Shown: positions 7,662-33,810, numbered from the stretch's first letter. The stretch: DNA of 57,177 nt from Sphaeroforma arctica JP610 (GCF_001186125.1 NW_014040082.1:1-57177); one strand, 5' to 3'. Numbers and translations are program-made. Notes: a model not told the origin generated them from the letters alone.

Positions 7662-10600
7662 TTATGAGCACAGCGTCATGGGCGTTATCCATGACAAAGC
7701 ACTACATGTTTCATATAGTATGTCATAGTGATCTGGTCTGTACAACAGCGTGATACTGTCCTCCGCGTCATCGGCATCTTCCCTGCCGATGTCATGCACA
7801 TTGCACTCGTCCCCGGTCGACTGATCCAAGTGCACTATCTTCAGCCTAATCTTCAAATACCGACACAGTGCGGCTATTTGTATCTGAAGGCAGAGCAGGA
7901 GAAGGGTGAACGGGTCAGAAGCACTGTGTGCCAAAGGTTGCTTACGCACAGATTGCCATGTGAGAATGGGTCACTGTTTGCTAAAGGGTGCTCACATATA
8001 TATTGTAAAGGATGCTCACGTATAGATTGTACGTCAATGATTTCTGAGTGTGCTGACACACGAAACAAGCCTTGCATATGTGTAGTTGTAACCGGTGACA
8101 TCAGACGCACATACATTATCTGCCTCTTTGCCGTAGCATTCGACTTGAGTGTTGCAAAACTTCTCAACTGTCGTCCCATCCTCCAGAAAGTGGATATACT
8201 GTAGAATACGCATCAGAAACACCTTGTGAGTAAACTGTAGAATAAGCTCGAAAAAAGCCTCGTGAACAGTCTGTAGAGTGAGCTCAAGGAAGGACTTAGT
8301 GAGTAACGGGAACGAAAATTGGTATACTACATACGTGTTGAGCCAATTGATTTCATGCAGAGCCTTGCGATTGCATCGGCAGTGGGTGCCTACTATTTGC
8401 AACTGCCAAGTGTGAAAGACTGCGCAATACACCTTTGCCTAGGTTGCACCGTAACTCTGATGTACTTTTTTATATTGCAGCGTAGCACTTCACATCAGAA
8501 TGCGAACATGATACAATAACAATGTTGTCACAGAGTATGTTACGGAAAAATCGTATCCCGGACTGCCAAGTTTAGGGCATCACACCTTTGCGACCAAAGA
8601 GGATAACTGGTACCATACAAAAATCGAGGCAATACGAGTGAGTGCTGTAGCCGGGCGCTGTGCTATGCAAAACACCTTACAGCTGAGGCGCTAGAGGATT
8701 TTGTACCCAGCCAAGAATGAACCAATATTGTACAGTACCAAACGGCTGGACTTGTGAGTATCCGGCAAATCTATATTGACACCAGTGAGATGCAAAACAG
8801 TATGATGATTGAAAAGAACTATGATCACTACGGCAGCATACTGTGTGTGTACCACTCTATAGGGCAACCCGCTGTTTGGCTTAGACGTTGAACAAGCTGC
8901 TGGTAGAAGACCAAACGGGACAGCAAAAATCGGGTATAACAGTACCCTGTCGATGGAATATTACCTAAAAACAAATCAGGGAATTCGTGCAATACAAGTC
9001 TACACAATGACAGCCCAGTAACTAAGATGTATGACTACCTAGGGCATAATAAATACAATGAATACTAACATATTGCTCTACAACTGTCAACAGAGCACCT
9101 CTCCTTGAACGCTGTATGTTATATCGTACCTCAGATGCATTGGTCCGTAACTCCACCGCGGTCATAAACCTGTAGTACAATCCTATGGCATTCGACATCT
9201 CGCTGTCGTTGAAGAGCTCATGCACCCACTGACTGTCCTTCTCCTTCACTTGCATCCAGCTCTCCAGAGTAGCCTCGTAGAAGTCTTCGAATACATACTC
9301 CTGGAAGCCTGCCTCGATCAGAGCCTGTAATCGCAGCCGTAGGCACCCAGTGGGTACCACACGTAATTGACCACATTATAGTGAGTACCACACGTAATTG
9401 ACCACAATATGAAAACCACACGCACTTGACCACATTATAGTGAGTACCACACGTAATTGACCACACTATAGTGAGTACCACACGTAATTGACCACATTAT
9501 GAGTACCACACGTACTCGACCACATTATAGTGAGTATCACACGTATTTGACCACATTATAGTGAGTATCACAGGTAATTGACCACATTATAGTGAGTATA
9601 ACACGTATTTGACCACACTATAGTGAGTGTCACACGTAATTGGCCACACTGTACTGTTGTTCAGTAGCTTTGCATTCATCTCTCCAGCTACGAGCACGCA
9701 ACATACCGGCTTGCTCTTCACTATTTGCACCTGGCAGCGTTCTTGCAGTGTCTGTGATTCTGTTTGCAGCAGTTTCTCATGCAAGGCATAGCTGACAGCT
9801 CTGTATAAACAGTTGCCATCTCTTCGACACCTTCGAAAGCTCTTGTAAGTCTTTGACAGATTCTGTGCACAAAGTAACACGCGATTAGATCAGACAATAA
9901 ATGTGGCTTAGATAGTTTATCTATTCATACACTCATAGCTACGTGCTTTATAACTGCAAGAAACCAGACAATGCACCCCTTCAAAGGACTGAAAATGTCC
10001 TCAACTATCGATCCACGTATCGGCAAAAAAGCTATTAGAGGAAGACCTTCAGTAGAACAACTTCTGAGATCATGTCTTTGAAAGTCAAACCGCCAAGAAT
10101 TGATGTCGAGAGCCAATTGATCTTCTGCACAAGTGTGGTCCAAAAAGTATGGCAAACGACAGTGTACAAGCATAGACAGCCGCGCCAACCCATATCACAG
10201 CACTAAATATATAGTGCCAAACTGTAGACACAGCGATATTTAAAGAGGAACTTGCAGATAGAATACAACAGACAACTACACACGGTATCAAAACTCTGTC
10301 AATCCCGTGACCTCACGTGTGTACTGATATCTCACGCTTATATACACACGCTTAGCTCCACTTGCAGATACACAGCGCACGTGCACATGCATATACACAT
10401 TACCACAGGGTATACCAACCTCTATTTTGTTCACGTACACAGCCGATCCATCCTCATATTCCTTCGCCAATTCTCTGATATCCATGGGCACACTCACCAT
10501 GGGGTTTAGCATCTGGATAGCCTCTAAGGTTTCTCTCTGTGAGCGATTGAGTGTATGAGGCCAAAGTAGAGTTTCGGTATCAGTTGCTTCTAAGTTTTCT

Positions 10601-11838: not shown

Positions 11839-15498
<3,660 letters not shown>

Positions 15499-15866: not shown

Positions 15867-17595
15867 TTACTTTAGAAGCGTCGTTACCAATTGGTCCCTC
15901 GCGGATTGGAAAGCCTGTGATAGCGGGAAGCAACGTGTGTGAATATATGCAGTATGATAGGAACGGATAAGGCACTTGCAGTGAGTAGACTATAGTACAC
16001 AGTTGGGAGAGGTTTAGAACTCACGACTCGCGTTTTGTTTTCGTCTGTGCTTCCAATCGTGGTGTTTCTGAGCAAATTAGCATTTTTCTATTTGCTCATA
16101 ATTACTTTTTTTCCCGCCAATTTGGGACTGTCGGATATTGTATACGACAGGATAGCACTATTTTGCAATGGATAAAACTTAAACTATGCCATGAGATTAC
16201 TAAGCTGCATAGGAATATTCATAGAAGTCTGTCATACCTGTGAGATGCTCTGTTCCGCAAGCGAGATATCTTCGCCACCACGCACAATCGCCCGGGAGGC
16301 AATGATAGATCCATCGGCTTCGAACACAATACTACAGAGGAAAAAAAATCGAGCTCAATAATAACAAAAAAAACTCTGAACCTAAAAATAAGCTTTACTG
16401 TAGCGACGGTAGCTAGTGCAGTGAGCGGCAATCACATTAGTAAGGATCACGATGTAGTATCACCTGATGCCAACTATAGCCAAAGTGAATAAACAATCAT
16501 CCTCAACTGTGAAGGGATCGCCGTATCCTTGATCAGGGTAGTTGGAAGTACAAGGTGCACATATCCTTCAAGTTATGCCTAGCTATTCGCTTTCATACTC
16601 AAAGAGATCAGATAGTCTTGCACGCACTCCAGTTCAGCACTTACCCATTGTCAACCATCTCGTCCACGACCAAGAATATGGCGTCTAAGTTGTCGAAAAC
16701 TAGCCTCTTCTCAACTTGATTTCTGCAGTGACAGATATAGCGGGACGGGTTAAACCAAACCGAGAGAACGAAAACGGTACTACATCTCTCAGGCTCAATT
16801 AGTGTGTCGAGTATAAATCACCCGCTCTGGAAGCATGTACCAAAAATACCTTAATAATATAGCCACGGCATCGTAGAATGTGGATAGTACGCTCATGAGC
16901 ATTAGCTCGTTCTCGTCAGACGATCCCACGATGTAGAAGAACAGATCAACATTGCTGCGGTACACGGTGGTCAGTCCATCGAACATCACAATCTCGGCTG
17001 AGGTCAGGTAAGAATATAGTGGCCAAAGGAAAAGTAAAAAAACAAGTCGTGATAGTCGCAAAAGGTTAAGTAAAGACAAGTGGTGAGAGTGAGAGTCGCA
17101 GACCAGACTACAGTGCAAAAGGGAAGTGTTCCAGGAGCCGGGCTTATGATTGAGGCAAACGACGAATACTCTGATGTCAAGCGAATGAGGTACATAGGCA
17201 GGTGTGCTTCTCTTAAGCAAAGCCATTTGTCTATACGGGGCAGCTGTCACTTGACTATAGGAGCACACGGGCGCAATATCCAACAAGCCTATTATAGGTG
17301 GACACAGCACTAATAAAAGTATATATAAAAGATCACAATACTTTGGGGATGGCACACTGAATTGCATCCCAGGGTAACGAAATAGCACACAGTCATAAGG
17401 CAACGCAAACAGGTGGACAGTCATTCTCAACGACATACAATGTTGTCGACACGTCTTGTTGAACAGACTCTTCTCGAAGACCAGTTGTTCTTTTGCTGTG
17501 GGGAATGTGTCGTCGTAGTACTTTGCGATGATGCGGTTCCCGTCATTGTCCATCAGGATGACGGCCTTTATCGAGTATAGGGAGAGACTCTGCAT
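15867..17595 (-). CDS. COPZ1: Coatomer subunit zeta; exons approx. 17439-17595, 16850-16997, 16645-16722, 16238-16331, 15867-15914 (start may lie in a small upstream exon)
   Basis: '[23 protein letters not shown]', 'FEKSLFNKT', '[21 protein letters not shown]', 'VDEMVDNG', C-terminus '[15 protein letters not shown]'. Exon phases are consistent. Confidence 0.93.
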
Positions 17596-18139
17596 GGATC
17601 ACAGACCCATAAACATCACACACAAAGTACGATAGACAGGGTGCAACGTCAAACAATAACAGAACGGAATTAACACAAAACATAGTCATGAGGTAACACC
17701 GAACATGTTATGTACGACAAAACACATACGACAAGTCCAACACAACAATACATACAACACATTCATGGTATTGGTTGTTTCATAGCACGCAGTAAGGGTG
17801 CAACAAAGCAAAGGGAGGAAGAGCAGATTTAAGTTAGTGACCGACATGAGCAAACAAAGTTTTCGAATATTACGCGCGAAGTGCTTCATAAGAGAGCTGC
17901 ACTTCAAAAAGTTAGTCCACACAGTTTTCTATAGAAATGTCATGGTAGAAATTTGTTCTGAAAACATAAAAGCTCTCCCAGCCAGGTCCAGCCAGTAGTT
18001 ATGTACGTACGCAAAAATGAATGACCGAGATTGAAATCTCCATAAAACTATTACAGAAAATAGACGTATCCAAATTAGTTTAACGTAGAAAACAGACAAG
18101 ATAGCACAACCAAACCGACACTCAGCGCATACACACAAA

Positions 18140-18846
<707 letters not shown>

Positions 18847-19677
18847 ATGCTGGTCTATCTTCTGGTGTCGCCTTTGATAGAGATGATAATGTCATCGGTG
18901 TTGACTTTTCGCTAAGAGTATTTTGGTGCGGTGCTGTTATTTTTAGGTGTCTGAAGACGATCTATCGTTTGCAAACTATACCTCGCTTCCGCGACGATAC
19001 ACTCGTGGGCAAACAGAAATCATAGCCGAAACATCGTGTGCACAACCATTCCATAGACAAATAGTTAAATTTTTATGAAGAAGTTAATCTTGATATATCC
19101 GACACTTGCTCTGCTAAAAATCAAAGACTATACAAATAATCAACACTCATGACTAACCATCGTGGCAAAGCTTGTTACGGCACTGTGTTCGTGTGTAACA
19201 TGATTATACGAAGCTTCTGGTAACTATGGGCTCTGAGATACGGTAGACACGGAAAACGCAAAACAAAAATCCAATACAAATAAAGTGTAAAGGTTCGGTA
19301 CAAAAGCCTTTTGGCTTTTCGCGGGCTGTGAGATTTTTTTTCTCAAAATTGCACATGAGTGATGAGCGGGCGCCGGGCGAGCGGCTCGTAGTCACAGGAT
19401 CGTTGCTCGATTATACAAATTTTAAAAAATTAAACCCAAAAAATTAACTGTCCTAAATATTGAATATTCCCGTGTGAATACATATATTTATATGTATTTA
19501 TATATGAATACGAATGCGTCTATAAAACAGTGTTGTGTAGGTGTATGTCCTGACATAACATATAGGTCTATTAAGTACAGCTCATAGGCAGAATACATAC
19601 AAGGCTTTGCGGAACTGCCCTTCAACGTCGGGCTTTATCACATTCTTCTATAGTAGAGTATCATATTATTAATCAGC

Positions 19678-20185
19678 ATGTCGTTGCAAACTAAGGGCGA
19701 CCCTACTAAACAGCACTGGGAAGATTCAGATTTCCCTATTCTGTGCCAAACATGTTTGGGAGATAACCCATATATGCGCATGACTAAAGAGAAACACGGC
19801 AAAGAGTGTAAAATATGCACGAGACCCTTCACTGTGTTTAGATGGTGTCCTGGGCGTGGCATGCGATTCAAGAAGACCGAAGTGTGCCAGACGTGTGCGA
19901 AGGTTAAGAACGTTTGTCAAACGTGTATATTCGATCTGCAATATGGCCTGCCTGTGCAAGTTAGAGATCAAGCCTTGGGGATTGTCGATAATGTACCGAA
20001 GTCAGCGGTCAATAAGGAATACTACGCACAGAACATGGAAGCACAGGTATGTATGCATGTCCGAAACAGTCAAAACCGGCTCCAAATATTACTTTTTGCT
20101 TGTATGAGGTTTAAAATCCTCCGATCTGTGTTCACGTCACCACAAAGTATCGTTTACGAAGACATATACACATACATCCGCGCAA

Positions 20186-20230
<45 letters not shown>

Positions 20231-20584
20231 CGACATACACACACTATTATATATATACACACACATATATATATTATATATATATTATATATATNNNNNN
20301 NNNNNNNNNNNNNNNNNNNNNNNNNNNNNNNNNNNNNNNNNNNNNNNNNNNNNNNNNNNNNNNNNNNNNNNNNNNNNNNNNNNNNNNNNNNNNNNNNNNN
20401 NNNNNNNNNNNNNNNNNNNNNNNNNNNNNNNNNNNNNNNNNNNNNNNNNNNNNNNNNNNNNNNNNNNNNNNNNNNNNNNNNNNNNNNNNNNNNNNNNNNN
20501 NNNNNNNNNNNNNNNNNNNNNNNNNNNNNNNNNNNNNNNNNNNNNNNNNNNNNNNNNNNNNNNNNNNNNNNNNNNNNNNNTTTA

Positions 20585-20669
<85 letters not shown>

Positions 20670-23223
20670 TGTGTGTGTGTGTATATATATTCATATATTT
20701 ATATATTTATAAATACGAATACTATGTATATCGCGGACATCGTATGTATATAAAAATCACACAGTCAAATTGAATTAGAGTACGTGGTACATAGGCATTT
20801 ATAATATATACTTGTACTTCTCTAATATTGAGTGTTTAGCTATGTATTTATATACATGTTGTATTAAACCATATTCACACAATTTTTAGTATATAGTTTG
20901 AATGCTTCTTTATAGTCGGACTCTATGCAATCGCGAGTGTGTGAGCGGGAACGTCTACCATTGATACTTCGCTCGTCTGTATGTAAAAATTAAATTACAA
21001 ATGCAGCATTTTATGATTATTGTCCTCAGCAACGGAGACACAGTTGATGCTTGGCAATAGTACTATCCTCTATAGAAATTTGTTTTATATCCTGTCTGTA
21101 TGCATTCCTTACTTTTATAGTCCGTTAACATAACTATCCACCGTACCCTCTCAGATGGCAGTTGCTGAACCTGGTGCGTTAGCTATCGATATGTCGGGCA
21201 GCGGAACTCTGTCTGTGGGCGGAGTTGGTGGTGCAGTTGGAGGTGTGGGCGGAGGCGGTGGAGGCGCACCAGGGGGAGTAGGGGTTGGTGGGAAGGTAAA
21301 TAACGCGTACCTGAAAACTCTGGCCAGGACCGGTCCATACTACAAGCGGAACAGGGCGCACATATGCTCGTTCTGGGTGAAGGGAAACTGTAATCGTGGC
21401 GAAGAGTGTCCGTACAGACACGAGATGCCCACCGACCCGAATAACCCACTGGCCAAACAGAATATCAAGGATCGTTATTATGGAGTCAATGATCCCGTTG
21501 CGGACAAGGTATGTTGTAGTAGGCGACAAAATCCACGTCCTAATTTTGATTTTTCTTTCGTCAGCAAACTGACAATGAGTGGCAGCTGGTGTATACGTAC
21601 GGCACGGTTTAGCTGTGTTTCGTTGAACATGTGATGTACATTTGTGTTTATATACACTTGAATAACATGTGCAGATTATCATATACAGTGCTATAAATTG
21701 CAACAAGACCATCCCCCGTTCATCTATTCAATGTGCCACGCTTAACCAGTGATTTGATTGCTACACACTTTCGCAGATTATCGAACGGGCTGCCAGCCGA
21801 CCCAGGTTAGAACCGCCCGCAGACAAGTCGGTGATGACACTGTACTTGGGAAATATAGACCCGGCCGTCACGGAACAGGACATCCGCGACGTGTTTTACC
21901 AGTAAGTGGCATATCTAATTTCAGTGTTTGATTTGCTTGGCCGAGTATTGAGATGTTCATAACTAGCCGTTCTCACTATTTTTCGTCAGTTTGACGATTG
22001 AGCCGTGGCTAATGTGCACAACACCACTAAGTATTGTATTTGGCTGTGCTATATCCTGCTTTCAATGATTGCTGTAAATGCACTGAAGATCACCTCATGC
22101 AAACAAGATTTATTATAGGAAGGGCATGCTTCTTTACAACTAATTCGTTGACATTCTTACACGTCTCCTGCTGATACGTTCACCGTCTTCCCTTTGAACA
22201 GGCACGGAACCATCACAAACATCACACTTGTGTCGAAACAAGGCTGTGCGTTTCTGGAGTACTCCGCTCGGTCGGAGGCTGAGAGGGCCGCGGAGAAGAG
22301 CTACAACAGCGTGTTGCTAAAAGGAAAGAAGATCAAGATCTTGTGGGGCAAGTAAGTTGATGTGGCACATCTCGTTTATTGCGAAGTGTAAACATTTTTG
22401 TTTGTTTGTGGTGTGGGTGCAAGCGGTGAGTGGCGGGGATTACATAACCAGCAGAGACGTCATGCCGTCACGTTTTCTGTTGCGAGAGTTATGCGTGACA
22501 CATCTCATTGCTTAGTGAGACTACGATTCTGGTGGGGGTTTATTGTTTGTCGAGGTGACTACTTGTCTTTGTCTCCTAGGGACTACAACCAAAGTATATG
22601 TATCCGTCTGTGCCGAAAATAAGAGCCAATTTCCACTAGTTCTTGATTGGGTGCTGTAGGGTTTGGATTCGTGACTTACGCTGCATAATTTTCTTGTCTG
22701 ATTCAGGAGCAAATCACAACAGTCACAAAACAACGCTTCAGCGAATATCAATCTGCAGCCTGTTCCTGGATTGCCACCGAGCGCAAAGACCGGTCCTGGC
22801 CCTGGCCCCCCAGGTGTAAGGCCACCCCAACAAAAAGGACTCCAAGGCATCCACTACCCATCACAAGTAAGTTTGTCAGGTTTTTTGTTGCTGCTTGAGG
22901 CTTGGCTTGTATTGTTGCCTGTTGTGCGTGCACGGACACGGCTGCAACAAATAAAATATGCACAGCGATGTTGTGGTGGTTTGTATACATATAGCTATTA
23001 TGCGAGGGTTAAGCGTTTCCAGGTTTACTTCCTATCGATGTTTGTACGTGCTCACTCTCATATTTGCAAGATAATTTAAATAGTCCTACAATGCTGGAAT
23101 TCCATGCTATAGAAATTATGCACCTGTTATTTCATTTGTATGGGCCAGCCAGTATATCTCAACGACTATTTGCCCAATTCCTTGCAGGATCCGACTCGTA
23201 TGGGTACCTCCGGGAAGAGGTGA
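19678..23223 (+). CDS. RBM22: Pre-mRNA splicing factor RBM22/Slt11; exons approx. 19678-20046, 21155-21508, 21777-21901, 22202-22351, 22707-22866, 23188-23223
   Basis: '[22 protein letters not shown]', '[16 protein letters not shown]', CCCH finger '[21 protein letters not shown]', RRM ('TLYLGNI', 'GCAFLEY'), C-terminus 'IHYPSQDPTRMG'. Exon phases are consistent. Confidence 0.96.
20186..20690. repeat. (TA)n-rich microsatellite around an assembly gap in RBM22 intron 1
   Basis: Direct reading; N run ~20295-20580. Confidence 0.95.
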
Positions 23224-23483: not shown

Positions 23484-23528
23484 CAATAGGGTCGGACAAC
23501 AAATAAATAGGCATTTTGAAGCCGGAAC
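23484..23528 (+). repeat. Left terminal inverted repeat
   Basis: CAATAGGGTCGGACAACAAATAAATAGGCATTTTGAAGCCGGAAC. Confidence 0.88.
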
Positions 23529-23689
23529 GTATCTACCCGAATTCAGTGAAACCCTAAATCCTGCACACATCTCATTGTACTTTTGACTATAAATCATATA
23601 AACAAACACTATTTGGTTCACACACGCGCGTAATATCGGCGTACAAATTAGCATACTTTACTGTGTAGTAGACCATTCGATAAACAACA

Positions 23690-25660
23690 ATGAGTGAAAG
23701 TAGTACAAACGTTCGTCGCCGAATCAGTGATGAGTTCAAAAGTCCGGCTTCGGTGCGTAGAGTTTGTTTATGTTCAAAGGATCTATGCAACAAAATCGAT
23801 GCAACAACATCGATGCAACATCGATGCATAAAACTTGTAGATCATTACTTCAATCTACCCAAGCGATCCAGAGCGCCTGATAAACGTCGACGTTGGTTAA
23901 AAAGAGTTCTGCCCAAAGATAAAAATACTTTCAAAAGTCTATACAACTCAGACACACGATATTCCATCAATGCTAAGCACTTTTTATTTCAATCGTTGAT
24001 CTGGAAGCAGAGTAGACTTTTCCCTGGACCTACGGCAGAACCATATGAAGAGCTACATCGGCACAATTTGAATCAACTATCGCGTAGACCTAACTTTCAT
24101 CGCGCACGAGTACAGTGTGTATGTACACAAAGTGATGATGTATGTGGTGAAGATCTAATATATGTAGGACTGAGTTTACCGTTGAAAGCAGATGTCAGAG
24201 AGAAGTGGCTAACAATACTAGTGAGAGATACAACACAGAGACAAAAGATAAAGAAATTGCCTGTAGTTAAGGAGGGAGAGAAATGTAAAAGACAACGCTC
24301 GAAAGTAGCGCATCACCACTTCCGTACAGACCAGCTTAATACAACGGCAAATGGCCGTATACGTGTTAAGCCAGGTGAGCTACCAACGTTCTATCCAATC
24401 CTAGAGGATGTTTCAGATGAAGCCAAGAGACCAACTCCAGATGATAGACGCGATATTACAAGTATAAGAACGATAGTGGCATCGGGTACAACGAATCTGC
24501 CCGAGAAGAATGTTAAGAAGAATGTTAAGAATGTTCAAGTACGTAAGCATGTTGTAGACATAGTCACCCATATATTAAAAACTCATATAGAGTGTGCACA
24601 ATACACATCACCCGTAACACCCGAGGCGATATCAATCAAATCACAGAGCTATATCAAACTGCTAGAAAACGACAATGCGCTGTGCAACACAGTAACAGGC
24701 GAACCGTCAATGGCGTGTGTGAAGAAGCTGTATGATCTACTCAATGCGGTGGCATCTTTCGACGTGATGCGCCAATACTCACCTCGCGTGCGTACATTAT
24801 TGGTTGAAGTAAATTTCCCTGAGGAGAGTGAGGAAGGGGAAAGTGGGAAGATAATAGAATCGGTCATGAAAGAATACGCATAGCATAGAAATTTATTTAA
24901 ACAGTCTCTATTTGAGCAGTTTGTTCTTTGGCTTGTGTACTATGTTTAATACGCTACATACTGTATATAAATATAGCAGACGCACGGACGCATTTTGGTG
25001 TTAGCAAAACTTCAGCGAAAAACAATTATGTAACGTGGACGTATGCGATTGCAACCATTATAAGAAAAGCAAGCCTATACCAAGCAACAAACAAAACGCA
25101 GCCAAAATGATGGAGGATTTGTGAGAACGACTTGGTCTACTGCCTGGATGTTCTTCATGGTTTTCAGATTGTACTGAGAAACCAATGGAGGACCCTTGCT
25201 ATATTGCCCCAGCACTAAATGCTTTTTTATTTTCACAGTGTAACAAAGAAGTAATATCTAAACATTGCACCATTGCTGGTGCCAATACAAACATAGCGGT
25301 TGTCACTGCACCCTATCCAGTGTCGGAAACTGACAATCCATATGTGCCAATGAGCGTTTTGGTGCGAGAAAACGTTGCGACTGTTATCCCTGACGGATCG
25401 TCAAGAACTTGAAGTAAATAGAATGCATGTAACATGTCCAAGAAAGAAGATGGCGGGTCAGATCGTACTTGACTCAGAAACAACACGACAAGACAAACAA
25501 CCTGCAAAATAAAGATTACATATAGAAAGGAACAACGAGGAATTGCATAACTACCATGCTTGGGACGGCGGAAGACTTACTACATCTGATATTGATTTAC
25601 ACAAGGAGGAATCCGAATGTATACGAAGTTTGACGAACCTAAAGCCGCGTATGTAACACC
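23690..25660 (+). pseudogene. Disrupted ISL2EU/Harbinger-type transposase (2x THAP-like, HTH, DDE_Tnp_4-like)
   Basis: ORF 23690-24883 has two C..C/P/W/HF THAP-like units, 'RVKPGELPTF' (AVPTIF-box-like) and 'TGEPS..LYDLL'. Downstream fragments read 'LFEQFVLWLVY', 'DARTHFGVSKTSAKNNYVTW' (HTH) and 'DCTEKPMEDP...LFSQ..K...VTAPYP..TD' (25167-25412; first catalytic Asp region). Stops and frameshifts intervene, and the 3' end is approximate. Confidence 0.75.
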
Positions 25661-28077
25661 TATATATAACTGGTGGTTGTCAAAAAAGGAGCGTAGAACT
25701 AAAACTAATAAACGCAGTATTCCACAAGGGGCTACTACTTTCCTTTAGATAACAAAAAGACTATGCTCTCACAGTTGTAAGCCAGAGATATACATTAAAT
25801 AAAAAATTATTCACAAACACCTATCGGTTTCTTTCGCTCTCCTCCCTATCTCTGAAGGTAACCACATCAAGTTTCAATCCTAGTTTAGGATTTGTGCCTC
25901 TCGCTTCTGTACGCTAGAAGTTTTCCAAGTGCCTCACTATCTTCATTGTAATCTAGTTTAGAGATCGGGATTATATTATTTATTTCAAAAAAGATAAGTT
26001 ACAAGGTATGTACATACTGTATGGCTCTCATAGCCGTTGTAGTGGTTCGGGAAAGATCGATGGGAAGAAGTGGTCAGTAAATTCCCGTTTGAAGCTTGGG
26101 TCAAGTGAGTCGACGATGGAGGATATGCGCTGGGTCAATTCAGGCTGGTGCTGACAAAAAAATGGACACCATCGAGTGTGCCATTTATTCGCTTGCTGAC
26201 CTACTAAGTAGCGTACCCACCTCTGTGGTACGGATCGGGTCTGTGCCGTGTAGTGCCGTGGAATAGGTTAGTGCAGAGTACAAAATACCAAGTAGGACCA
26301 GGTTATCCGTCATAATTCGGTCGAGGAGCGAAGTTGGGGATGAGCCAATGCCGCACCAGACCACGGATGCACTCGGTATGTGCTGGCTGGCCTGGATCGG
26401 AAGTATCATAGGCTGAACCAACAAGCGCGCGATGACTTGGTTTGTACCGAAATTTGGAAGTAGTACTTCAGCAGCGTAATTAGCCGGGGTACGCGGAACA
26501 TCTGTTGATGTGTTAGAGACGGGTGAGGGTACGGTGGTTGTTCTACATGCTGGAGAAAGGATCCAAGGTGTTCGTGGAGGGTACAGATACCGTGGAAGTC
26601 ATGGCGCTCCTGTAATTGCTGGAGGAGGTCAGGGCCAATGAGCGGCAGTTTCGGGCCTACCAGGATGCGTCGGATCAATTGTTGGATGCAGATAATGTGG
26701 CTGGTTTTAATGACAGAGACAGCCGTCAGTGCGGTAGTCGAGCAATGTAAACATAGCACAGAGCCGGATTGGTGTAGACTCGAAGCAGCGGTTGAAGCTG
26801 TCGTGTCTGGCTTTGTCTCGATTTGAGGTTGGCGGTTTACCCATGGCCAGTTGGTAGTAGTATTGGCGCCGGGCCGTTGCCGCGATCTCCTTGTTGGACC
26901 AGCGTTTTGTTGAGTTCTTTCAATGTCGTCACAGTGTTGGCGGAGGGTTACATGGTCGGGTGTACGCCAGCCTGTGATTTTGTGCACAGTTCTCAGGTGG
27001 GCATAGATACTGTACGGGAAACGCAGTGATGGTTTGTCGTGGGCCCTGGCGGGTTGCGTCAGAGGGGTGAGTGGATTTGTACTAGTCATTGAGTCGAGTT
27101 GTATTCCCAGGCAACCTCCGAGGTAGTCCGCGAATGAGGGAGCAGGCCACAAAGGTGGAGTAGGGTTGTTTGATGTTTGGGAAACCTAGGGTATTTAGTG
27201 CCCGTGATGATGGCTGCTGCTTGGATGAGTTCTGAGTCATAGCGCTCGAACAGGGGGTCCAGCGCATTCTTCCATATAGGCGGAGCCCAGGTAATATGCT
27301 GCCAGTCGGTTGCGGGGGTGTCGCCAGCTGAAGCCATGGAAGCCATAAGCGAGGAAAGAGGCGATACCCAGGGACAATGCAGCAACCAGGGATTCAATAT
27401 GTCTGGCGAGGTTGATTCCTGGTATTCCGTGAGAGAGTGGGAATCCCAGATATTTGGAGCGTTTCGGCTTGTCATGTGTGGGCTCCATCTTCAGGGGGAG
27501 GTAACGTGTGTTCCATGGTGCGTCTGCGAGCGTCGACGTGATAAGCTCACCATTTATACGGAGGGTTGGCGCCGCGTGTCGCAAAGTCGGTAGATCGTAT
27601 TCGGGGTTTGATGACACCCTGTTCGAGGCCAGATTTGCGTCCCCACGCATCAATGTCGTCTAAGAAGGGCTGGAGAGAAACCGGATGCGGGGCTTGGATC
27701 CGTGTATCGTCAACAAATAAATAAGAGTGAAGGAGCTTGGGCCGAAATTGTGCTAGCGTGACAGCTAAGGAATCCATGTAGACAATAAATAGCTGGGGGT
27801 CGATAATTGAGCCTTGTAATATGCCATTCGTTCTATGGAATAGAGCAGAGAGCGTGCCGCGGTATGTCACTCGGATAAGGACCCTCTCAAATAGAGCGCG
27901 GAGGCAGTTGATCCAGTTTCCTGGCAATACAGCGTGGCGCACGTGTACCCACAGGCGTGGGAGAGCAACCTTGTCGTATGCTTTGGTACTGTCCAGACAC
28001 ACGTCGTTCCACTCCTCTTCCGACTGTGTTTCAGATTCCATGGCGGCGAGTGCTTGGGTATTGTAGGATTTGGTCTA

Positions 28078-28826
28078 TTAAAGCGATACTAATGCCTTGG
28101 AATAAATAAACGCGTAGGTAAGTTCTAAGTATCGTGTAAATATCAAAGTAAATAAACGAAATGAGACATTTGGTAAAGTTAGGTATGCCTCGTGAAAACA
28201 GCAATACTCTGAGGGATTGTGAGACTGAGTATATAATCCTCTCAGTACTGTTTCCGCCGAAGGGATTTTATTTAGTGTTTCGTTGTCGCTCTATTAGAAA
28301 CTATGGTATGTTTCACTGGGGCGAATCCGAGAGACTCATAAAATCCTATCTTTAGAACAAATAAAGAAAAAATAAAAATACTCTTGATGTCCTTAGTTAT
28401 TGTCTTATCCAATAACTTGCCACTATCAAGAATTACCGACTTAGCCTTCATCAGACTGGCACATCTGGTTCGCTGGTCGGAGGATCAACTAGGTAACGTC
28501 AATAGTCCCTAGAAACCTATATTCCGTTGAGCCATCTCGCTACCGAAGTTTTCAGATATAAATAAAGTTGGAAAGTAAATAAAGTTATATTAATAGAACT
28601 AGACTAACTCTTTATGTTTGGTATTTTACTGAGGCCTTTTAATGGTCTTGTCCAAATATCTGATATGTAAAATGGAAAAGGTATTAATTAAAATCATTAA
28701 AAACCATTTTAGGAAACTTAAGTTCCTCGTACTATTAAGAGTACATTTAGGAAACTTAAGTTCCTCGTACTATTAAAAGTATGTTTATAATTTACGTACT
28801 GCTTAAGAGTACGTTTATAACATAGA
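28078..28826. mobile_element. AT-rich ~750-bp non-coding insertion interrupting the LINE RT (solo LTR or non-autonomous element)
   Basis: Abrupt composition change between RT motifs 'QAGF' and 'D..KAYD'. Flanked by GTCTA at 28073-28077 and 28827-28831. The minus strand starts TGTTATAAAC (from 28822) and ends ...CTTTAATA, LTR-like. Internal tandem TAGGAAACTTAAGTTCCTCGTACTATTAA. Confidence 0.55.
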
Positions 28827-29226
28827 GTCTAATGTGGAGGCCCAGCATATTACAGTATGACAGGAGCATCGTGATTTGAAGCCAGCCTGGGTAGCATGGG
28901 TAGCAGAGCCGGGGTGGCTCGTAATCAGCGTAAGAAAGCACTTCTCAAAGATACGCGTCCAAATATCTGATATGTAAACTGGAAATGATATCAATTAATA
29001 AAACCATTAAATCCCATTTTAGGAAACTCAAGTTTCTCGTACTATTAAGATTACGTTAGGAAACTTACGTACTGCTTAAGAGCACGTTTATAACATAGAG
29101 TCTAATGTGGAGGCCCGGCTTATTACAGTATGACAGGAGCATCGTGATTTGAAGTCATCTTGGGTAGCATGGGTAGCAGAGCCTGGGTGGCTCGTAATCA
29201 GCTTAAGAAAGCACTTCTCAAAGATG
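28651..29226. repeat. Diverged tandem duplication (~270-300 bp) spanning the insertion/RT junction
   Basis: TCCAAATATCTGATATGTAAA...CATAGAGTCTAATGTGGAGGCCC...GCACTTCTCAAAGAT occurs at ~28651-28951 and ~28958-29226. Confidence 0.9.
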
Positions 29227-31614
29227 TGTCTGACTATTTGCGTAAGCGTGATAGGGCGGAAGTCGGGATATCTGCATCGGCTTTCTATGGGTGCGCTGTC
29301 AGGAGGCTGCAGTTCAGGGCTACAGGGAAGGTACTCATCTTCAGTAGCTCAGTGAATGCTTCGGCAAGGAGTCTAATCAGTGGGCTATTGGCGTCGGGGC
29401 ATCCTAGTGTCCTACGTTTGGTGGAGCGCTCCACCGTGGCCTTCAGGAGGAGGATGTGGATCCCATCGGGGCCAGGTCTCTTATTGGGATAGCGTAGTAT
29501 CGCCCCCATTACATCGTTGGGGCGTATGGCGAAAGTTACATCGGGCGAGGGTTCGGCATCCGGTGGAACCACGTACGGGTTTGTAGAGCTGAGTAGGTCT
29601 TCAAATGTGTCATCGGAGACATTCGTTGGTATGCAATATATTTGAGCATTTGAGTATTGCTTTGGGCAGTCAAATGTGGGCGGAACGAGTGGTTTGGCAG
29701 CAGCTGAACCCAGGGTATATTTAAGTCATAGTAGAACCCCCTGACGATTTGTGGGTTAGCGGTATAGCGCCAGATACGGTCGAGGATCTGTAGCAGCCCT
29801 TCCACTGGTTCGTACAAAGAGAGATACGACCGTAGTAGGTTCTGATGCGCTCGGATTTTGGCTTGGAATAGTCGCGCGCGGGTTTTGTTGCGTAGGTAAT
29901 ATAGTCGATGGCGGTATCGGTTATATCCATGAGAGGGAAGGAGTTAGTCCGGAGGCGGCGGTATTGTTGGCATTTGTTGGGGCCGATGGTATTAATTCGT
30001 TGGAAGTATCTGGAGATCGAGTCCAAAGGTGTGGTCACCACAGATACTGTAGTTCGTCAGCTTATAGATCTAGAGGGAGGCGGGCGTGGTAGGCCGATGA
30101 TACGCATGTCCTGTACCAGTTGGGCCACCAACATTGAGGTAGTCCAAGGGCCACGTATTACGCAGGGTAGTTTCGATTGTGATCATACGTGGTCCATGAT
30201 TCGTAGATGCGTGGCCATATTTCCGGGCTTTGAAGTTGAAGTCTCCCCAAACGACATCTGGTTGGAAATTACCAATCTCGGGGGGATTCATGTATCGCCT
30301 GACGTCTTCTTTGGTAAATGATCTGAGTGGAAGGTAGAACACGGCCGCCATATGAACACCAAAGTACATAAAGAACATCGCGTACGGCGAGGAGTGTACA
30401 AATTGAAATCTCAATGGGTGGTGTTTGGAAAAAAAATCACACCACAGTTTGAAGGGTGAAAGATATTATGCCGTGTAGTGTGATGTAGAATATGGTAGTG
30501 TGTGTTCGAGCGTATATGATTAGGGAATTTGGTGTTATGCCAGGTTTCAACCACAAACATAACATCAATCTGACTTAAAATCGATATAGCGTTCAAACAC
30601 TTATCTGTATGTGCTGCGTTGTCCATATTGAGTCCTTATGGGTTGAAGAGCGTCATCCTCATTTAACTGGGCTCTCTTCCTTATCGATGTCAGCCATTTC
30701 TATACCATTGCCTGTCGTCGAAGAGTCTCTCGTGAAAGGTTGAAGCTGCGTATTGGTAACCATCGTGTCGGTTGATTGTGTCAGGAAGACCGTTGGTACG
30801 TGAAATCGTCCGGATTGCGCACGCGCTGGTTCTTTAGCGTTTGTCGGGATTCGCGGGATAGGTGAGAAGAGGGTTGTATCATGTTTTGCTTGGTAAGTCT
30901 TCTGGAGATGGTCCACGGTAGATCGGAGGATGTCTGCGTTAGTGGAATTGACAAGGGGAATCAGTAGTGCATCCATGCTGCGGGCAAGAATTTTTGACAC
31001 TCGTTAATGTGTGCAGCGGGTCTCCCGCTTGGGGCGGAGATAGTGGATTAAGACTGCTTTCGTAGCGTCGGTATGTTGTTGGGAGCGGGGGTCGATGTTT
31101 TCATCAAGTTGCCATTTCCACGTAAGTGCTGCATGTCGTTTCACCTGGGCGACAGCGTCGCTAGGAATACAGACGGACGAAATTGGTGGAGCTCCACGGC
31201 GATTTAGTTGAAATAGTTTAGACAGAAGATACCAAAGAAAGTGGTGGCGTTTGAGGAGTGGTTGGACATGCCAGTATTTTTCAAATACTGATTGGGATGG
31301 GGGCTTGCCGTTAGGAAAAATTGCCCGGAAGAAGAGCCATACCGGAGTTGTCACCATTTCGTGACGAGTTTTGTCCGGCATCGGGCGGCCCACCACTTTC
31401 GTCAAAAGGTGTGCGGGTACTGGCGGCTGCGGTAGGAGCTGAGAAGCTGGTGGGGTCGGGCGTTTAATAGGGCTCGGTTTTGCGGGTTTGTCCACTTTTG
31501 AGTGGTAGCTGGGAGGCTCACTGCTGCTATTGGGCGCCGGTGACCGCGGTCTTTTTGCTGGCGGAGCAGGCGGGCTTGTGGAGCCAAATCGGAAAGTGTT
31601 GGGTGTGCCTTCAG

Positions 31615-33604
31615 TTATAAGTGCACGGGTTTGTTAGAGATAAGTCTATCCAACCTTGGATCAAATTTGTGAAGCACGCAAACAGTGTAATAATCTCTGC
31701 TCTCACCCATGAAGGGTTCTACAACGTCTATCGCGGGTCTGTGTGAAACTATTGTTGCCAATACACCCCTGTCTCGCCAGGTATTATCAGCATCAGTGCT
31801 GCCATTGCTTCCTATCTCCACTATGCGTTCAAGTGTTGCTTGTATATGAATACACCCATTGACATAGTAGCAGGGTCTGTATTCACCTCTAGTTTCTTTG
31901 GGAATAAAGCGCAAAGCAACTTGTATTTCACGACATACGCGCCGAGCAGGATTGTTTATCACTGCGCGAGTTCATTCTAATATCGCAAATACGGTCGCGA
32001 GGGTATGTTGATATATCTTCCTGTTTCAGTTTATAAGTATATGCTGATCACATCGTCGGCTTGCTACGTTGCGCCCATCAACACTGAGGCAAATCTAGTA
32101 CGCTTTTGTGTATCTTGTCTTGTTGAGTGCTATGTATCCTCGCGGTCAAAATAGTCCTCGACAAGATGTTTATCAATCACAACTTTAATGACACTGTCTT
32201 GTGAGCATGGCTCCAACTTTACAGTTTTCAATTCCTCCTCGTATACTGGTTTATGCTTGGCTAACAATTTAACAGAATCCTTTACGTACAGTCGATCTCA
32301 CTCTAGACGTTGAATCAGCGGTTACATATTCTTTTAAATCAGAAACTCTGGTATTACTACCAGAAATACTCAAACCATGAGCCGAACAGTATGTACGCAG
32401 TTGAACTCCATTCAGCATAGAAATATCAATCGGCGGCTCATCCTTCTCGAAGTTTGTTACACGCAATACACCTTTCCACTCGGCGTCTCTCGCAAAACAT
32501 GACGTATTGTCCACATCGATAGCGCCAAATAGCCCAGCCGCACAATACTCGTAACTCAGCTTGTTTACAATCACCCGATTACACCAGGGCGCGGGTTTGC
32601 CTGGCCCAAAGGCATGATAATAAGTGAGATATACAAATTGTTTGACATCTTGACGCTGAGTATCGAAATACGATACGAACAGACGCGACACTGGATTGTA
32701 AACGGGTTGACAATAACACATATATGCTGCTTGCCTGACTTCTAGTCTGGCCACCTTCAATTTCTTCTCATCAGATGCAAATTGGGCTTTCAAAATATCG
32801 TCTACTGTACACAACCCTCTTTTCAGATGCTTCAGCAAAGTCGCCACTCCTGTTCGATGGATGTCTATAGTCGGTCTTAAACAGCATCGCACACATAAAC
32901 AATATATGATCAAAACCATACACGGTGATATAGTACAATTTTTTTCTTCTGCATTTGATGCTGAGTCGAGATCAGGACAATGTACTTTTCAAGTTTAGAA
33001 CGTACTTCACTTCTCCTAAAGATTCGCCCATATCGTCTCAGTAAATGCTTGTCAACAATCAGATTGTCTCCGTAGTGAACTATATAATCACTATCATTAC
33101 AGATAATATATTCTACAAGACCTTCCCTCTGAAGATACACAAGATGATGCTCAGCCTCTTGCGGTGCAACTAAAAAGTTGACGTTACTTGCAGCTAACAT
33201 ATCCATCACACGATTCGCTGCTTTTAGATTACGTGCACCAACTGCCTTTTTACATTGCATGTACAAACTATCATGATCGTGATTTTCACCCTCAAGCATG
33301 CACAACACACTATCAAGTGCGGTCTGTCGATCTGACGTACGAGATGTGTTGGCTAACTTACCTGCCACACGCTGACCGTCAAAAACAGGTAAGATTGTAT
33401 TGGAATTTCACTCCTTAATTGACTGTAGTGTTCTCCATACATCTATATCAAAGCGCTTGTAACAGTCTACTTCGTCCTCCGCTAGTTTAAAAACTTGTGG
33501 ATAATTGCGAACATATCACAACCAATGACACTATTCCCTATAGCTGTGTAGTCTCCATATACAAATATACCCCCTAGGACAGGTAGCAACCCGTCAGTAC
33601 CCAT
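31615..33604 (-). pseudogene. Disrupted transposon accessory gene: EXO1/XPG/FEN1-family PIN nuclease followed by SAP-like and SWIM-like motifs
   Basis: From ATG 33604: 'MGTDGLLPVL', 'GNSVIGCDMFAIIHKF', 'ILPVFDGQRVAGK', 'FLVAPQEAEHHLVYL', 'IICNDSDYIV', 'TDY' plus frameshifted 'TGVATLLKHLK', 'QPVYNP'. Then 'LNGVQLRTYCSAHGLSISG..RVSDL' (SAP-like) and 'PCYYVNGCIHIQATL' (SWIM-like). Several stops and frameshifts. Confidence 0.8.
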
Positions 33605-33765
33605 AACTACGCTCTCTGTTCTTGTATCTCTAAGTAAAGTACTACAAGTGTAATGACGAGAGGCGCGTATACGCGTGCAAATACATATGTTGTTAAATGA
33701 ATTACAGTAAAAACTACCATAGCATGTGTATTGGGTTTAGGGGGTTTCAGATTTTATGTTTGCGA

Positions 33766-33810
33766 GTTCCGGCTTCAAAATGCCTATATTTCTGTTGTCC
33801 GACCATATTG
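33766..33810 (-). repeat. Right terminal inverted repeat
   Basis: Reverse complement is CAATATGGTCGGACAACAGAAATATAGGCATTTTGAAGCCGGAAC, 4 mismatches versus the left TIR. Weaker similarity continues inward (GAAACCC..TAAA). Confidence 0.88.

What the first reader, a model, noticed from the sequence alone, without database searches (positions are those of the whole stretch)
31615..33604. EXO1-like PIN + SAP + SWIM domain fusion
Seen: the nuclease motifs continue (through frameshifts) into 'DISMLNGVQLRTYCSAHGLSISGSNTRVSDLKEYV', then 'EYRPCYYVNGCIHIQATLERI...STDADNTW...KFDPR'. Established: cellular EXO1 lacks a SAP-SWIM tail. Inference: SAP/SWIM/FDPR-type segments resemble the non-nuclease scaffold of ISL2EU accessory proteins, so this may be a chimera with the nuclease placed N-terminally. 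The acidic PIN residues look largely retained (the usual EAD reads EAE), suggesting the nuclease was once active.
Basis: partly seen in the sequence, partly recalled or inferred. Interest (0 to 1): 0.72.

Follow-up and report, generated by a model that had tools for sequence, protein, structure and literature searches.

The report
Dead transposon-borne EXO1-like nuclease gene
This is a broken, dead copy of an EXO1-type DNA-cutting enzyme gene that lies inside an old jumping gene (a DNA transposon) rather than being a host repair gene; it likely once trimmed DNA ends for that transposon, its SAP motif is only weakly supported, and the proposed SWIM zinc finger is not supported.

Summary
The minus strand of 31615-33604 holds a real but dead XPG/EXO1-family nuclease gene. 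Pfam XPG_I scores 39.5 bits and the best solved match is human EXO1. There are at least four frame breaks and one in-frame stop, and independent public contigs reproduce them base for base. A diverged second copy also has EAE.

The SAP motif is sub-threshold (17.3 bits, cut-off 23.9). No profile supports SWIM, and its histidine is tyrosine in the second copy.

The gene starts about 200 bp inside the right arm of a 45-nt, 91% terminal inverted repeat (23484-23528 / 33766-33810). A 399-codon open THAP-like frame sits inside the left arm. A very high-copy LINE (about 26000-31637) is nested between the two genes. Three element ends lose likeness at the same base, so this is a mobile unit of about 4.7 kb once the LINE is removed.

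No DDE, YqaJ or other transposase domain was found, there is no clean target-site duplication, and no relative turned up in any sequence search.

Best reading: the accessory nuclease gene of an unclassified two-gene DNA transposon. It resembles ISL2EU in layout and AcademX in nuclease type, but is a shown member of neither.

The parts
33766..33810 (-). Right terminal inverted repeat, core 45 nt. Weaker likeness runs inward to about 33690. The outermost base of the element is 33810.
   Evidence: 91% complementary to 23484-23528, with 0 matches in 100 shuffles; three ends lose likeness at 33809/33810.
23484..23528 (+). Left terminal inverted repeat, core 45 nt. Weaker likeness runs inward to about 23605. 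The outermost base of the element is 23484.
   Evidence: In one search the loose end behind 33810 is the reverse complement of the window's left flank.
33485..33604 (-). Start of the nuclease gene (ATG 33604-33602; MGTDGLLPVL...), an XPG_N-like remnant. The frame is lost near 33490.
   Evidence: There is no Pfam hit on this 40-aa piece; the likeness to the XPG_N start motif is by eye and recalled.
32910..33515 (-). Second frame of the nuclease gene: the rest of the XPG_N-like part, an in-frame TGA at 33408-33410, VFDG, and the XPG_I domain (32982-33185) with EAE and DSD.
   Evidence: Pfam XPG_I, 39.5 bits. Alignment to human EXO1 residues 76-180. Third-position excess of differences from the second copy.
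32272..32988 (-). Third frame, 239 open codons: the post-XPG_I helical part, then the SAP-like motif at 32323-32424.
   Evidence: SAP E 0.0038, below the cut-off. No relative among 1.84 billion representatives.
32133..32297 (-). 55-codon piece in the frame of the XPG_I part. Its coding status is uncertain.
   Evidence: No family found.
31618..31971 (-). Coding, but of no known family.
   Evidence: 11 of 18 listed differences from the second copy fall on third positions of this frame. No Pfam, PDB or Atlas match.
25885..25991 (-). Possible last 35 codons and stop of the nuclease gene, separated from the rest by the LINE.
   Evidence: The frame runs on in phase across the candidate 8-bp duplication. 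Weak: an open run of 35 codons is expected by chance about 1 time in 5.
26000..31637 (-). Nested non-LTR retrotransposon (RVT_1 at 27547-28074). It carries an AT-rich, still more abundant insert or repeat at about 28000-29225.
   Evidence: Pfam RVT_1, E 1.9e-11. Depth 1e4-4e5 against about 75 for single copy. GC-skew switches at about 26000 and 31600. Candidate target duplication AGATAAGT at 25992-25999 and 31638-31645, which is not significant on its own.
23684..24883 (+). 399-codon open frame (Met at 23690) with two THAP-like stretches. It is the left-end gene of the element.
   Evidence: Pfam THAP E 3.6e-4, 21.7 bits, below the 23.9 cut-off, 2 stretches. No relatives found.
24884..25884 (.). 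About 1 kb between the two convergent genes, with no recognisable coding.
   Evidence: 27 ORF pieces of 30 aa or more on both strands gave no transposase family. The second copy also covers this region (depth about 2x).

Best explanation
The stretch is a frameshifted, stop-bearing dead copy of an XPG/EXO1-family nuclease gene lying just inside the right terminal inverted repeat of a low-copy, TIR-bounded DNA transposon, where the enzyme likely once served as the element's accessory DNA-end-processing nuclease. Shown: the nuclease homology, the breaks, the TIRs, a second diverged copy at another locus, the nested LINE, and the THAP-like open frame at the other end. Inferred: the two convergent genes formed one mobile unit of about 4.7 kb. 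Also inferred: the THAP-like protein would have bound the element's ends, and the EXO1-like enzyme, perhaps held on DNA by a SAP-like helix-turn-helix, would have resected or removed 5' strands or flaps at excision or integration, as is presumed for the YqaJ exonuclease of ISL2EU and the XPG nuclease of AcademX. The family is unresolved. The catalytic transposase is either lost from both visible copies or of a type that Pfam cannot see.
For: XPG_I scores 39.5 bits against a cut-off of 24.9. Human EXO1 is the best solved match, with VFDG, EAE and DSD aligned. The gene is colinear with EXO1 and has no introns, whereas host genes in the window are split: otubain lies in at least 4 pieces at 7665-9889 and AP sigma in 2 stretches. 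The 45-nt, 91% inverted repeat has 0 chance matches in 100 shuffles, and likeness extends about 125 nt. Both genes start about 200 bp inside an arm and point inward. In contigs of run X1, the left arm, the right arm and a third copy all lose likeness at 33809/33810, and the third copy runs on into a different flank. The arms have about twice single-copy depth. A second copy, 87-90% identical, spans both the nuclease gene and the THAP side. Of 31 listed differences between the copies in the XPG_I frame and the tail frame, 18 fall on third codon positions (binomial p 0.004). This fits copies that diverged while the gene was still under selection. The EAE codons are unchanged in the second copy, so EAE is a family trait and not decay. 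Literature: AcademX transposons carry an XPG nuclease (PMC10045372, passages). ISL2EU elements pair a THAP-bearing transposase with an exonuclease ORF and average about 4.8 kb (PMC4482050, passages).
Against: No DDE, RNase H-like, YqaJ or other transposase domain was found anywhere in the element. There is no perfect target-site duplication: the flanks read ..AACGA and CCACG.., and the best candidate is a 3-bp CGA/CCA with one mismatch. THAP and SAP are both below Pfam's cut-offs. No relative of any part was found, so 'family' rests on two copies in one genome. The searches were three word-indexed protein searches, one exhaustive phmmer search, one metagenome protein scan, one viral scan, the Atlas and the PDB. 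The THAP-like frame is fully open while the nuclease gene is broken at least five times, which is odd if both have been dead equally long. The codon-position test used only 31 of 136 differences: 40 were listed, and 9 in the non-coding leader were dropped.
Confidence: 0.6

Rival explanations
1. It is a decayed member of an ISL2EU-like (PHIS) lineage in which an EXO1-like nuclease, with a zinc module, takes the place of the YqaJ exonuclease. On this reading the DDE part of the THAP-bearing transposase was deleted or decayed in both visible copies.
For: The layout matches ISL2EU as described: a THAP-bearing gene plus a separate 5'-3' exonuclease gene, about 4.7 kb after removing the LINE against an average of about 4.84 kb (PMC4482050). 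Earlier unchecked notes of this scan describe such XPG/EXO1-SWIM partners of Harbinger/ISL2EU-type transposases in other genomes. The gene is about 690 codons, close to the 2106-letter gene in those notes.
Against: DDE_Tnp_4 and every other transposase profile are absent. The termini start CA, not GG, and there is no AT duplication. SWIM is not detected, and its His is not kept in the second copy. No sequence link to those other elements was found.
Confidence: 0.25
2. It is a remnant of an AcademX transposon, the one published superfamily with an XPG nuclease. Its Academ transposase part would be lost or unrecognised.
For: AcademX encodes an XPG-type nuclease and makes 3-4 bp duplications (PMC10045372). 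A 3-bp CGA/CCA near-duplication is possible here. The Academ RNase H-like domain has no Pfam model (PMC5751038), so Pfam would miss it.
Against: From recall of Kojima 2020, which is not held, AcademX has one long protein joining transposase and nuclease. Here the nuclease gene is about 690 codons with only about 270 non-nuclease codons, and a separate THAP-like gene stands opposite. An exhaustive phmmer search with the 239-aa piece found no Academ-like protein.
Confidence: 0.1
3. It is a host EXO1 paralogue, or a captured host gene fragment, that decayed and only by accident lies between two inverted repeats.
For: Human EXO1 is the best solved match. No transposase was found.
Against: The gene has no introns in an intron-bearing genome. 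It starts about 200 bp from a terminus shared by three ends. It is duplicated together with the arms. It has a non-EXO1 tail.
Confidence: 0.05

Closest known systems
ISL2EU group of the PHIS superfamily (Han et al. 2015, PMC4482050; Han et al. 2014, PMC4122938; passages read)
   Same: A two-gene TIR element of about 4.7-4.8 kb. One gene has a THAP-type N-terminus and the other encodes a 5'-3' exonuclease-type accessory protein.
   Different: The accessory nuclease here is of the XPG/EXO1 type, not YqaJ. No DDE/HTH transposase core was found. The termini begin CA, not GG. There is no AT duplication. ISL2EU was reported only from animals.
AcademX lineage of Academ DNA transposons (Kojima 2020, cited in PMC10045372; the original paper is not held)
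   Same: A DNA transposon that carries an XPG-family nuclease. A short (3-4 bp) duplication is possible.
   Different: From recall, AcademX joins nuclease and transposase in one long protein. Here the nuclease gene is short, no Academ-type transposase is recognisable, and a THAP-like gene is present.
Cellular EXO1 (human EXO1 structures 3qea, 5uzv)
   Same: XPG_I core with aligned VFDG, E-A-(D/E) and DSD acidic motifs, colinear over EXO1 residues 76-180.
   Different: Only 26 bits to human EXO1. It has a SAP-like motif and an unrelated tail, lies inside a TIR element, and is dead.
XPG/EXO1-SWIM partner genes of Harbinger/ISL2EU-type elements noted earlier in this scan (AI notes, unchecked)
   Same: An EXO1-like nuclease of about 700 codons travelling with a THAP/PHIS-type gene.
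   Different: No sequence likeness to them could be shown. SWIM and DDE were not found here.

Membership tests
XPG/Rad2/FEN1/EXO1 5' nuclease superfamily | XPG_I domain | tested here: met
   Pfam PF00867, E 7.8e-10, 39.5 bits against a cut-off of 24.9, model positions 1-63 of 89.
XPG/Rad2/FEN1/EXO1 5' nuclease superfamily | XPG_N domain | tested here: inconclusive
   No Pfam hit on the 40-aa and 35-aa pieces. MGTDGLLP.. and ..GCD.. resemble the N-terminal motifs by eye only (recalled). VFDG aligns to EXO1 residues 76-79.
XPG/Rad2/FEN1/EXO1 5' nuclease superfamily | Metal-binding acidic residues | tested here: met
   The D of VFDG, E-A-E (for E-A-D) and D-S-D align to human EXO1. EAE is unchanged in the second copy. 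The H3TH aspartate was not assessable.
EXO1 clade within the superfamily | Closer to EXO1 than to FEN1, XPG or GEN1 | tested here: inconclusive
   PDB phmmer gives EXO1 26 bits, Rad2 16.9 and archaeal FEN 16.6. No tree was possible.
SAP domain | Pfam SAP profile at or above the gathering score | tested here: inconclusive
   17.3 bits against 23.9, E 0.0038, model positions 1-24 of 37. No PDB match for the segment. The AF2 model is of low confidence.
SWIM zinc finger | CxCxnCxH signature / Pfam SWIM profile | tested here: not met
   No Pfam family at E<=10. Only C-x5-C-x-H is present. The His is Tyr in the second copy.
ISL2EU (PHIS) | DDE transposase with HTH and THAP | tested here: not met
   THAP is sub-threshold (21.7 against 23.9 bits). 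No DDE family in the ORF or in 27 downstream ORF pieces.
ISL2EU (PHIS) | Second ORF with a YqaJ exonuclease domain | tested here: not met
   The second gene is XPG/EXO1-type. No YqaJ hit.
ISL2EU (PHIS) | AT target-site duplication and GG termini | tested here: not met
   The termini read CAATA(G/T)GG. The flanks are ..AACGA and CCACG...
AcademX | XPG nuclease encoded by the element | tested here: met
AcademX | Academ RNase H-like transposase, joined to the nuclease | not testable with these tools
   Pfam has no Academ model (PMC5751038), Repbase is not held, and Kojima 2020 is not held.
AcademX | 3-4 bp target-site duplication | tested here: inconclusive
   CGA against CCA, one mismatch in 3.

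The most novel reading that the evidence does not exclude
The element is complete as seen. On this reading, a THAP-type end-binding protein and an EXO1-like structure-specific nuclease are its only proteins, so a FEN/EXO1-family nuclease rather than a DDE transposase would be the cutting engine of a TIR transposon.
Probability: 0.06. Interest if true: 0.85.

Novelty: new variant of a known kind. Interest (0 to 1): 0.4.

Why it matters
Accessory nucleases of cut-and-paste transposons (YqaJ in ISL2EU, XPG in AcademX) have no shown role. A further lineage that pairs a THAP-type gene with an EXO1-like nuclease would add a case of unrelated 5' nucleases being recruited to the same position. That would suggest these elements need a second, 5'-strand nuclease. 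This copy is dead and has no visible relatives, so its value is as a pointer to a family, not as a test object. For annotation it matters that this is not a host EXO1 gene.

Tried and rejected
- Whole genome: none is held.
- Word-indexed protein searches found nothing: the 239-aa piece with 'longer', the THAP ORF with 'near' and the XPG_I piece with 'longer'. These need shared 5-mers, so they are weak evidence.
- The exhaustive phmmer search of the 239-aa piece against 1.84 billion representatives gave 1 hit. P0001 is an FG-GAP-like repeat protein matched through its repeats, and I rejected it as spurious.
- The metagenome protein scan gave 0 relatives among 63 pattern matches. The TIR 21-mer in metagenomes gave 1 contig (L001), a 21-25 nt chance match in GC-rich DNA. 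The viral scan gave 0 relatives among 17 pattern matches.
- The Atlas gave no usable hit for either the 239-aa or the 118-aa piece. PDB phmmer found nothing relevant for the 239-aa piece, the 118-aa piece, the THAP ORF or the SAP segment.
- Single-sequence AF2 models had mean pLDDT of 36.8 (239-aa piece) and 34.9 (THAP ORF). They were too poor for fold search, and none was run.
- Rfam found no family in the window.
- The LINE target duplication AGATAAGT is not significant: 411 of 2000 shuffles share an 8-mer. I keep it as a candidate only.
- Expression: no RNA holder is listed. Run X7 is only guessed to be RNA, and it shows both copies and flanks like a DNA run.
- Introns instead of frameshifts: rejected for the N-terminal breaks, because the pieces are colinear with EXO1 with no extra length. 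This stays open for the 32000-32300 stretch.
- Papers: 0 hold ISL2EU plus XPG. The 5 that hold XPG, THAP and transposase are irrelevant. The 1 that holds Harbinger plus XPG is irrelevant. Kojima 2020 is not held. No supplements were opened.

Full report
**1. Observation**

On the minus strand between 33604 and 31615 there is a chain of open pieces:
- 33485-33604: MGTDGLLPVL..., with the ATG at 33604.
- 33411-33515 and 32910-33407: one frame, with an in-frame TGA at 33408-33410.
- 32269-32988: 239 codons.
- 32130-32297: 55 codons.
- 31615-31971: 118 codons.

The frames run 0, 2, 2, 1, 2, 1, so there are at least four frame changes and one stop.

The second frame carries a clear XPG_I domain: Pfam E 7.8e-10, 39.5 bits, cut-off 24.9. 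Its best solved relative is human EXO1 (E 7e-5). Rad2 and archaeal FEN score lower, at 16.9 and 16.6 bits. That alignment is colinear with EXO1 residues 76-180. It pairs VFDG with VFDG, VAPQEAE with VAPYEAD and NDSD with EDSD.

**2. The breaks are real**

Contigs of an independent public run (X1, a different study from the likely source sample) match the window with 0 differences and 0 gaps. They cover 31713-32893, 32864-33244 and 33225-33774, which includes every break. Low-depth runs under two other organism labels also give identical contigs.

**3. SAP and SWIM**

- **SAP.** The motif ISMLNGVQLRTYCSAHGLSISGSNTRVSDLKEYV (32323-32424) gives Pfam SAP E 0.0038 and 17.3 bits. That is below the 23.9 cut-off, and only the first 24 of 37 model positions match. 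A junk ORF from the spacer of the same element gave a comparable sub-threshold hit to an unrelated family (E 0.0059, 1 of 27 pieces). The 51-aa segment finds no solved SAP protein. SAP is possible but not shown.
- **SWIM.** The 118-aa piece matches no Pfam family at E<=10, no PDB chain and nothing usable in the Atlas. The sequence has C-x5-C-x-H, not CxC...CxH, and the His is Tyr in the second copy. SWIM is not supported.

**4. Context**

The gene is not alone.
- **Inverted repeat.** A 45-nt inverted repeat, 91% complementary, lies at 23484-23528 and 33766-33810 (0 matches in 100 shuffles). Weaker likeness runs about 125 nt inward.
- **Gene placement.** The nuclease ATG lies about 200 bp inside the right arm. 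A 399-codon open frame (23684-24883, plus strand) starts about 200 bp inside the left arm. Pfam sees two THAP-like stretches in it, together 21.7 bits against a cut-off of 23.9.
- **Nested retrotransposon.** Between the two convergent genes lies a non-LTR retrotransposon on the minus strand, at about 26000-31637. It has RVT_1 at E 1.9e-11 and GC-skew switches at both edges. Its contig depth is 1e4-4e5, against about 75 for single-copy DNA.
- **Element size.** Without the retrotransposon the element is about 4.7 kb.
- **End of the nuclease gene.** The LINE sits in or just after the last codons of the nuclease gene. Across a candidate 8-bp duplication (AGATAAGT, not significant alone) the tail frame runs on for 35 codons to a stop at 25885-25887.

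**5. Mobility**

In run X1, three different ends lose likeness at base 33809/33810:
- the right arm itself;
- the left arm, whose loose end is the reverse complement of the window's left flank;
- a third copy, which runs on into an unrelated flank.

The arms have about twice single-copy depth. A second copy, at single-copy depth and 87-90% identical, covers the nuclease gene and the THAP side. This second copy is also broken:
- a Trp-to-stop change in the tail frame;
- six deletions of 2-9 nt at 32761-32804;
- a 73-nt skip;
- a replaced 63-nt stretch;
- a part unlike the window at 33300-33609.

Its contig runs at least 255 nt past 31683 without breaking, so it seems to lack the LINE at that site (inference).

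**6. The tail is coding**

One search reported 136 differences between the two copies and listed 40. I dropped 9 that lie in the non-coding leader. Of the other 31, 18 fall on third codon positions: 11 of 18 in the tail frame and 7 of 13 in the XPG_I frame (binomial p 0.004). The two alternative frames show no such excess. The copies therefore diverged partly under protein-level constraint, as expected for lineages of a once-active element. The 118-aa tail is real coding sequence even though no family claims it. The EAE codons do not differ between the copies, so EAE is a family trait.

**7. What is missing**

- **No transposase domain.** No DDE, RNase H-like, YqaJ or other transposase family was found in the THAP ORF, in 27 ORF pieces of the 1-kb spacer, or in the nuclease tail.
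- **No clean target-site duplication.** The flanks read ..AACGA and CCACG... A 3-bp CGA/CCA with one mismatch is the best candidate.
- **No relatives.** Every search for relatives of any part was blank. The one phmmer hit was a repeat artefact.

**8. Interpretation**

The gene is best read as the accessory nuclease of a low-copy two-gene DNA transposon, now dead. I infer, but have not shown, how it worked. The THAP-like protein would have recognised the ends. The EXO1-like enzyme would have processed 5' strands or flaps at the excision or integration intermediates.

Two published systems are closest.
- **ISL2EU.** These elements pair a THAP-HTH-DDE transposase with a YqaJ exonuclease ORF, make AT duplications, start with GG and average about 4.84 kb (PMC4482050 and PMC4122938, passages read). 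This element shares the layout and size but fails the DDE, YqaJ, duplication and terminus tests.
- **AcademX.** These elements carry an XPG nuclease and make 3-4 bp duplications (PMC10045372, passages). Here the nuclease type fits, but the single long transposase-nuclease protein (recalled; the paper is not held) is not seen. The Academ transposase cannot be tested with Pfam (PMC5751038).

Unchecked earlier notes of this scan describe EXO1/XPG-SWIM genes travelling with Harbinger/ISL2EU-type transposases in other genomes. They raise the prior for an ISL2EU-like affinity. I could show no sequence link to them, and I found neither SWIM nor DDE here.

**9. Novelty and score**

I found no paper pairing an XPG-family nuclease with THAP, ISL2EU or Harbinger elements. 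Transposon-borne XPG nucleases as such are known from AcademX. I rate this a new variant of a known kind. Interest is moderate (0.4) because the copy is dead, its family cannot be placed, and the most striking claim (SWIM) fails.

The boldest reading not excluded is that the element is complete as seen and the EXO1-like nuclease itself is the cutting enzyme. I put that at about 6%.

Noticed in passing
window 26000-31637 (minus strand): A non-LTR retrotransposon (RVT_1) nested in the DNA transposon. Its contig depth is 1e4-1e5 against about 75 for single copy, so it belongs to a family of very many copies. Several internally deleted variants appear as joints.
   Followed up: partly
window 27941-29225: An AT-rich stretch inside the LINE, with 38-nt tandem units and about 273-nt direct repeats. 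Its depth is even higher than the LINE's (up to 4e5-8e5). It is probably a separate short, very abundant repeat inserted there.
   Followed up: no
window 23684-24883 (+): The THAP-like frame is open for 399 codons, while the nuclease gene of the same element has at least five breaks. This is unexplained. It may be chance, later gene conversion, or retained use of the THAP protein.
   Followed up: partly
window 23560-23575 and 33735-33750: Both subterminal arms of the element keep a CCCTAAA motif, a plant-type telomere unit (recalled), within the weaker part of the inverted repeat.
   Followed up: no
window 7665-9889 (-), 12896-15029 (+), 16798-17598 (-), 19657-21631 (+), 34739-55963 (-): Host genes around the element: otubain in at least 4 exon-like pieces, a Methyltransf_28 protein, an AP-complex sigma chain, an RBM22/STL11-type splicing factor and a midasin-like giant gene with a 3799-codon open stretch. 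The element lies between the last two, which converge on it.
   Followed up: partly
window 12074-12139, 18371-18739, 20295-20580: Runs and scattered single N, 630 in all. One run falls inside the RBM22-like gene.
   Followed up: no
window 31997 and 32104: The second copy has +1 and -1 indels relative to the window at these two places. They bracket the stretch where the window's own reading path is unclear, so one copy may keep the older frame there.
   Followed up: no
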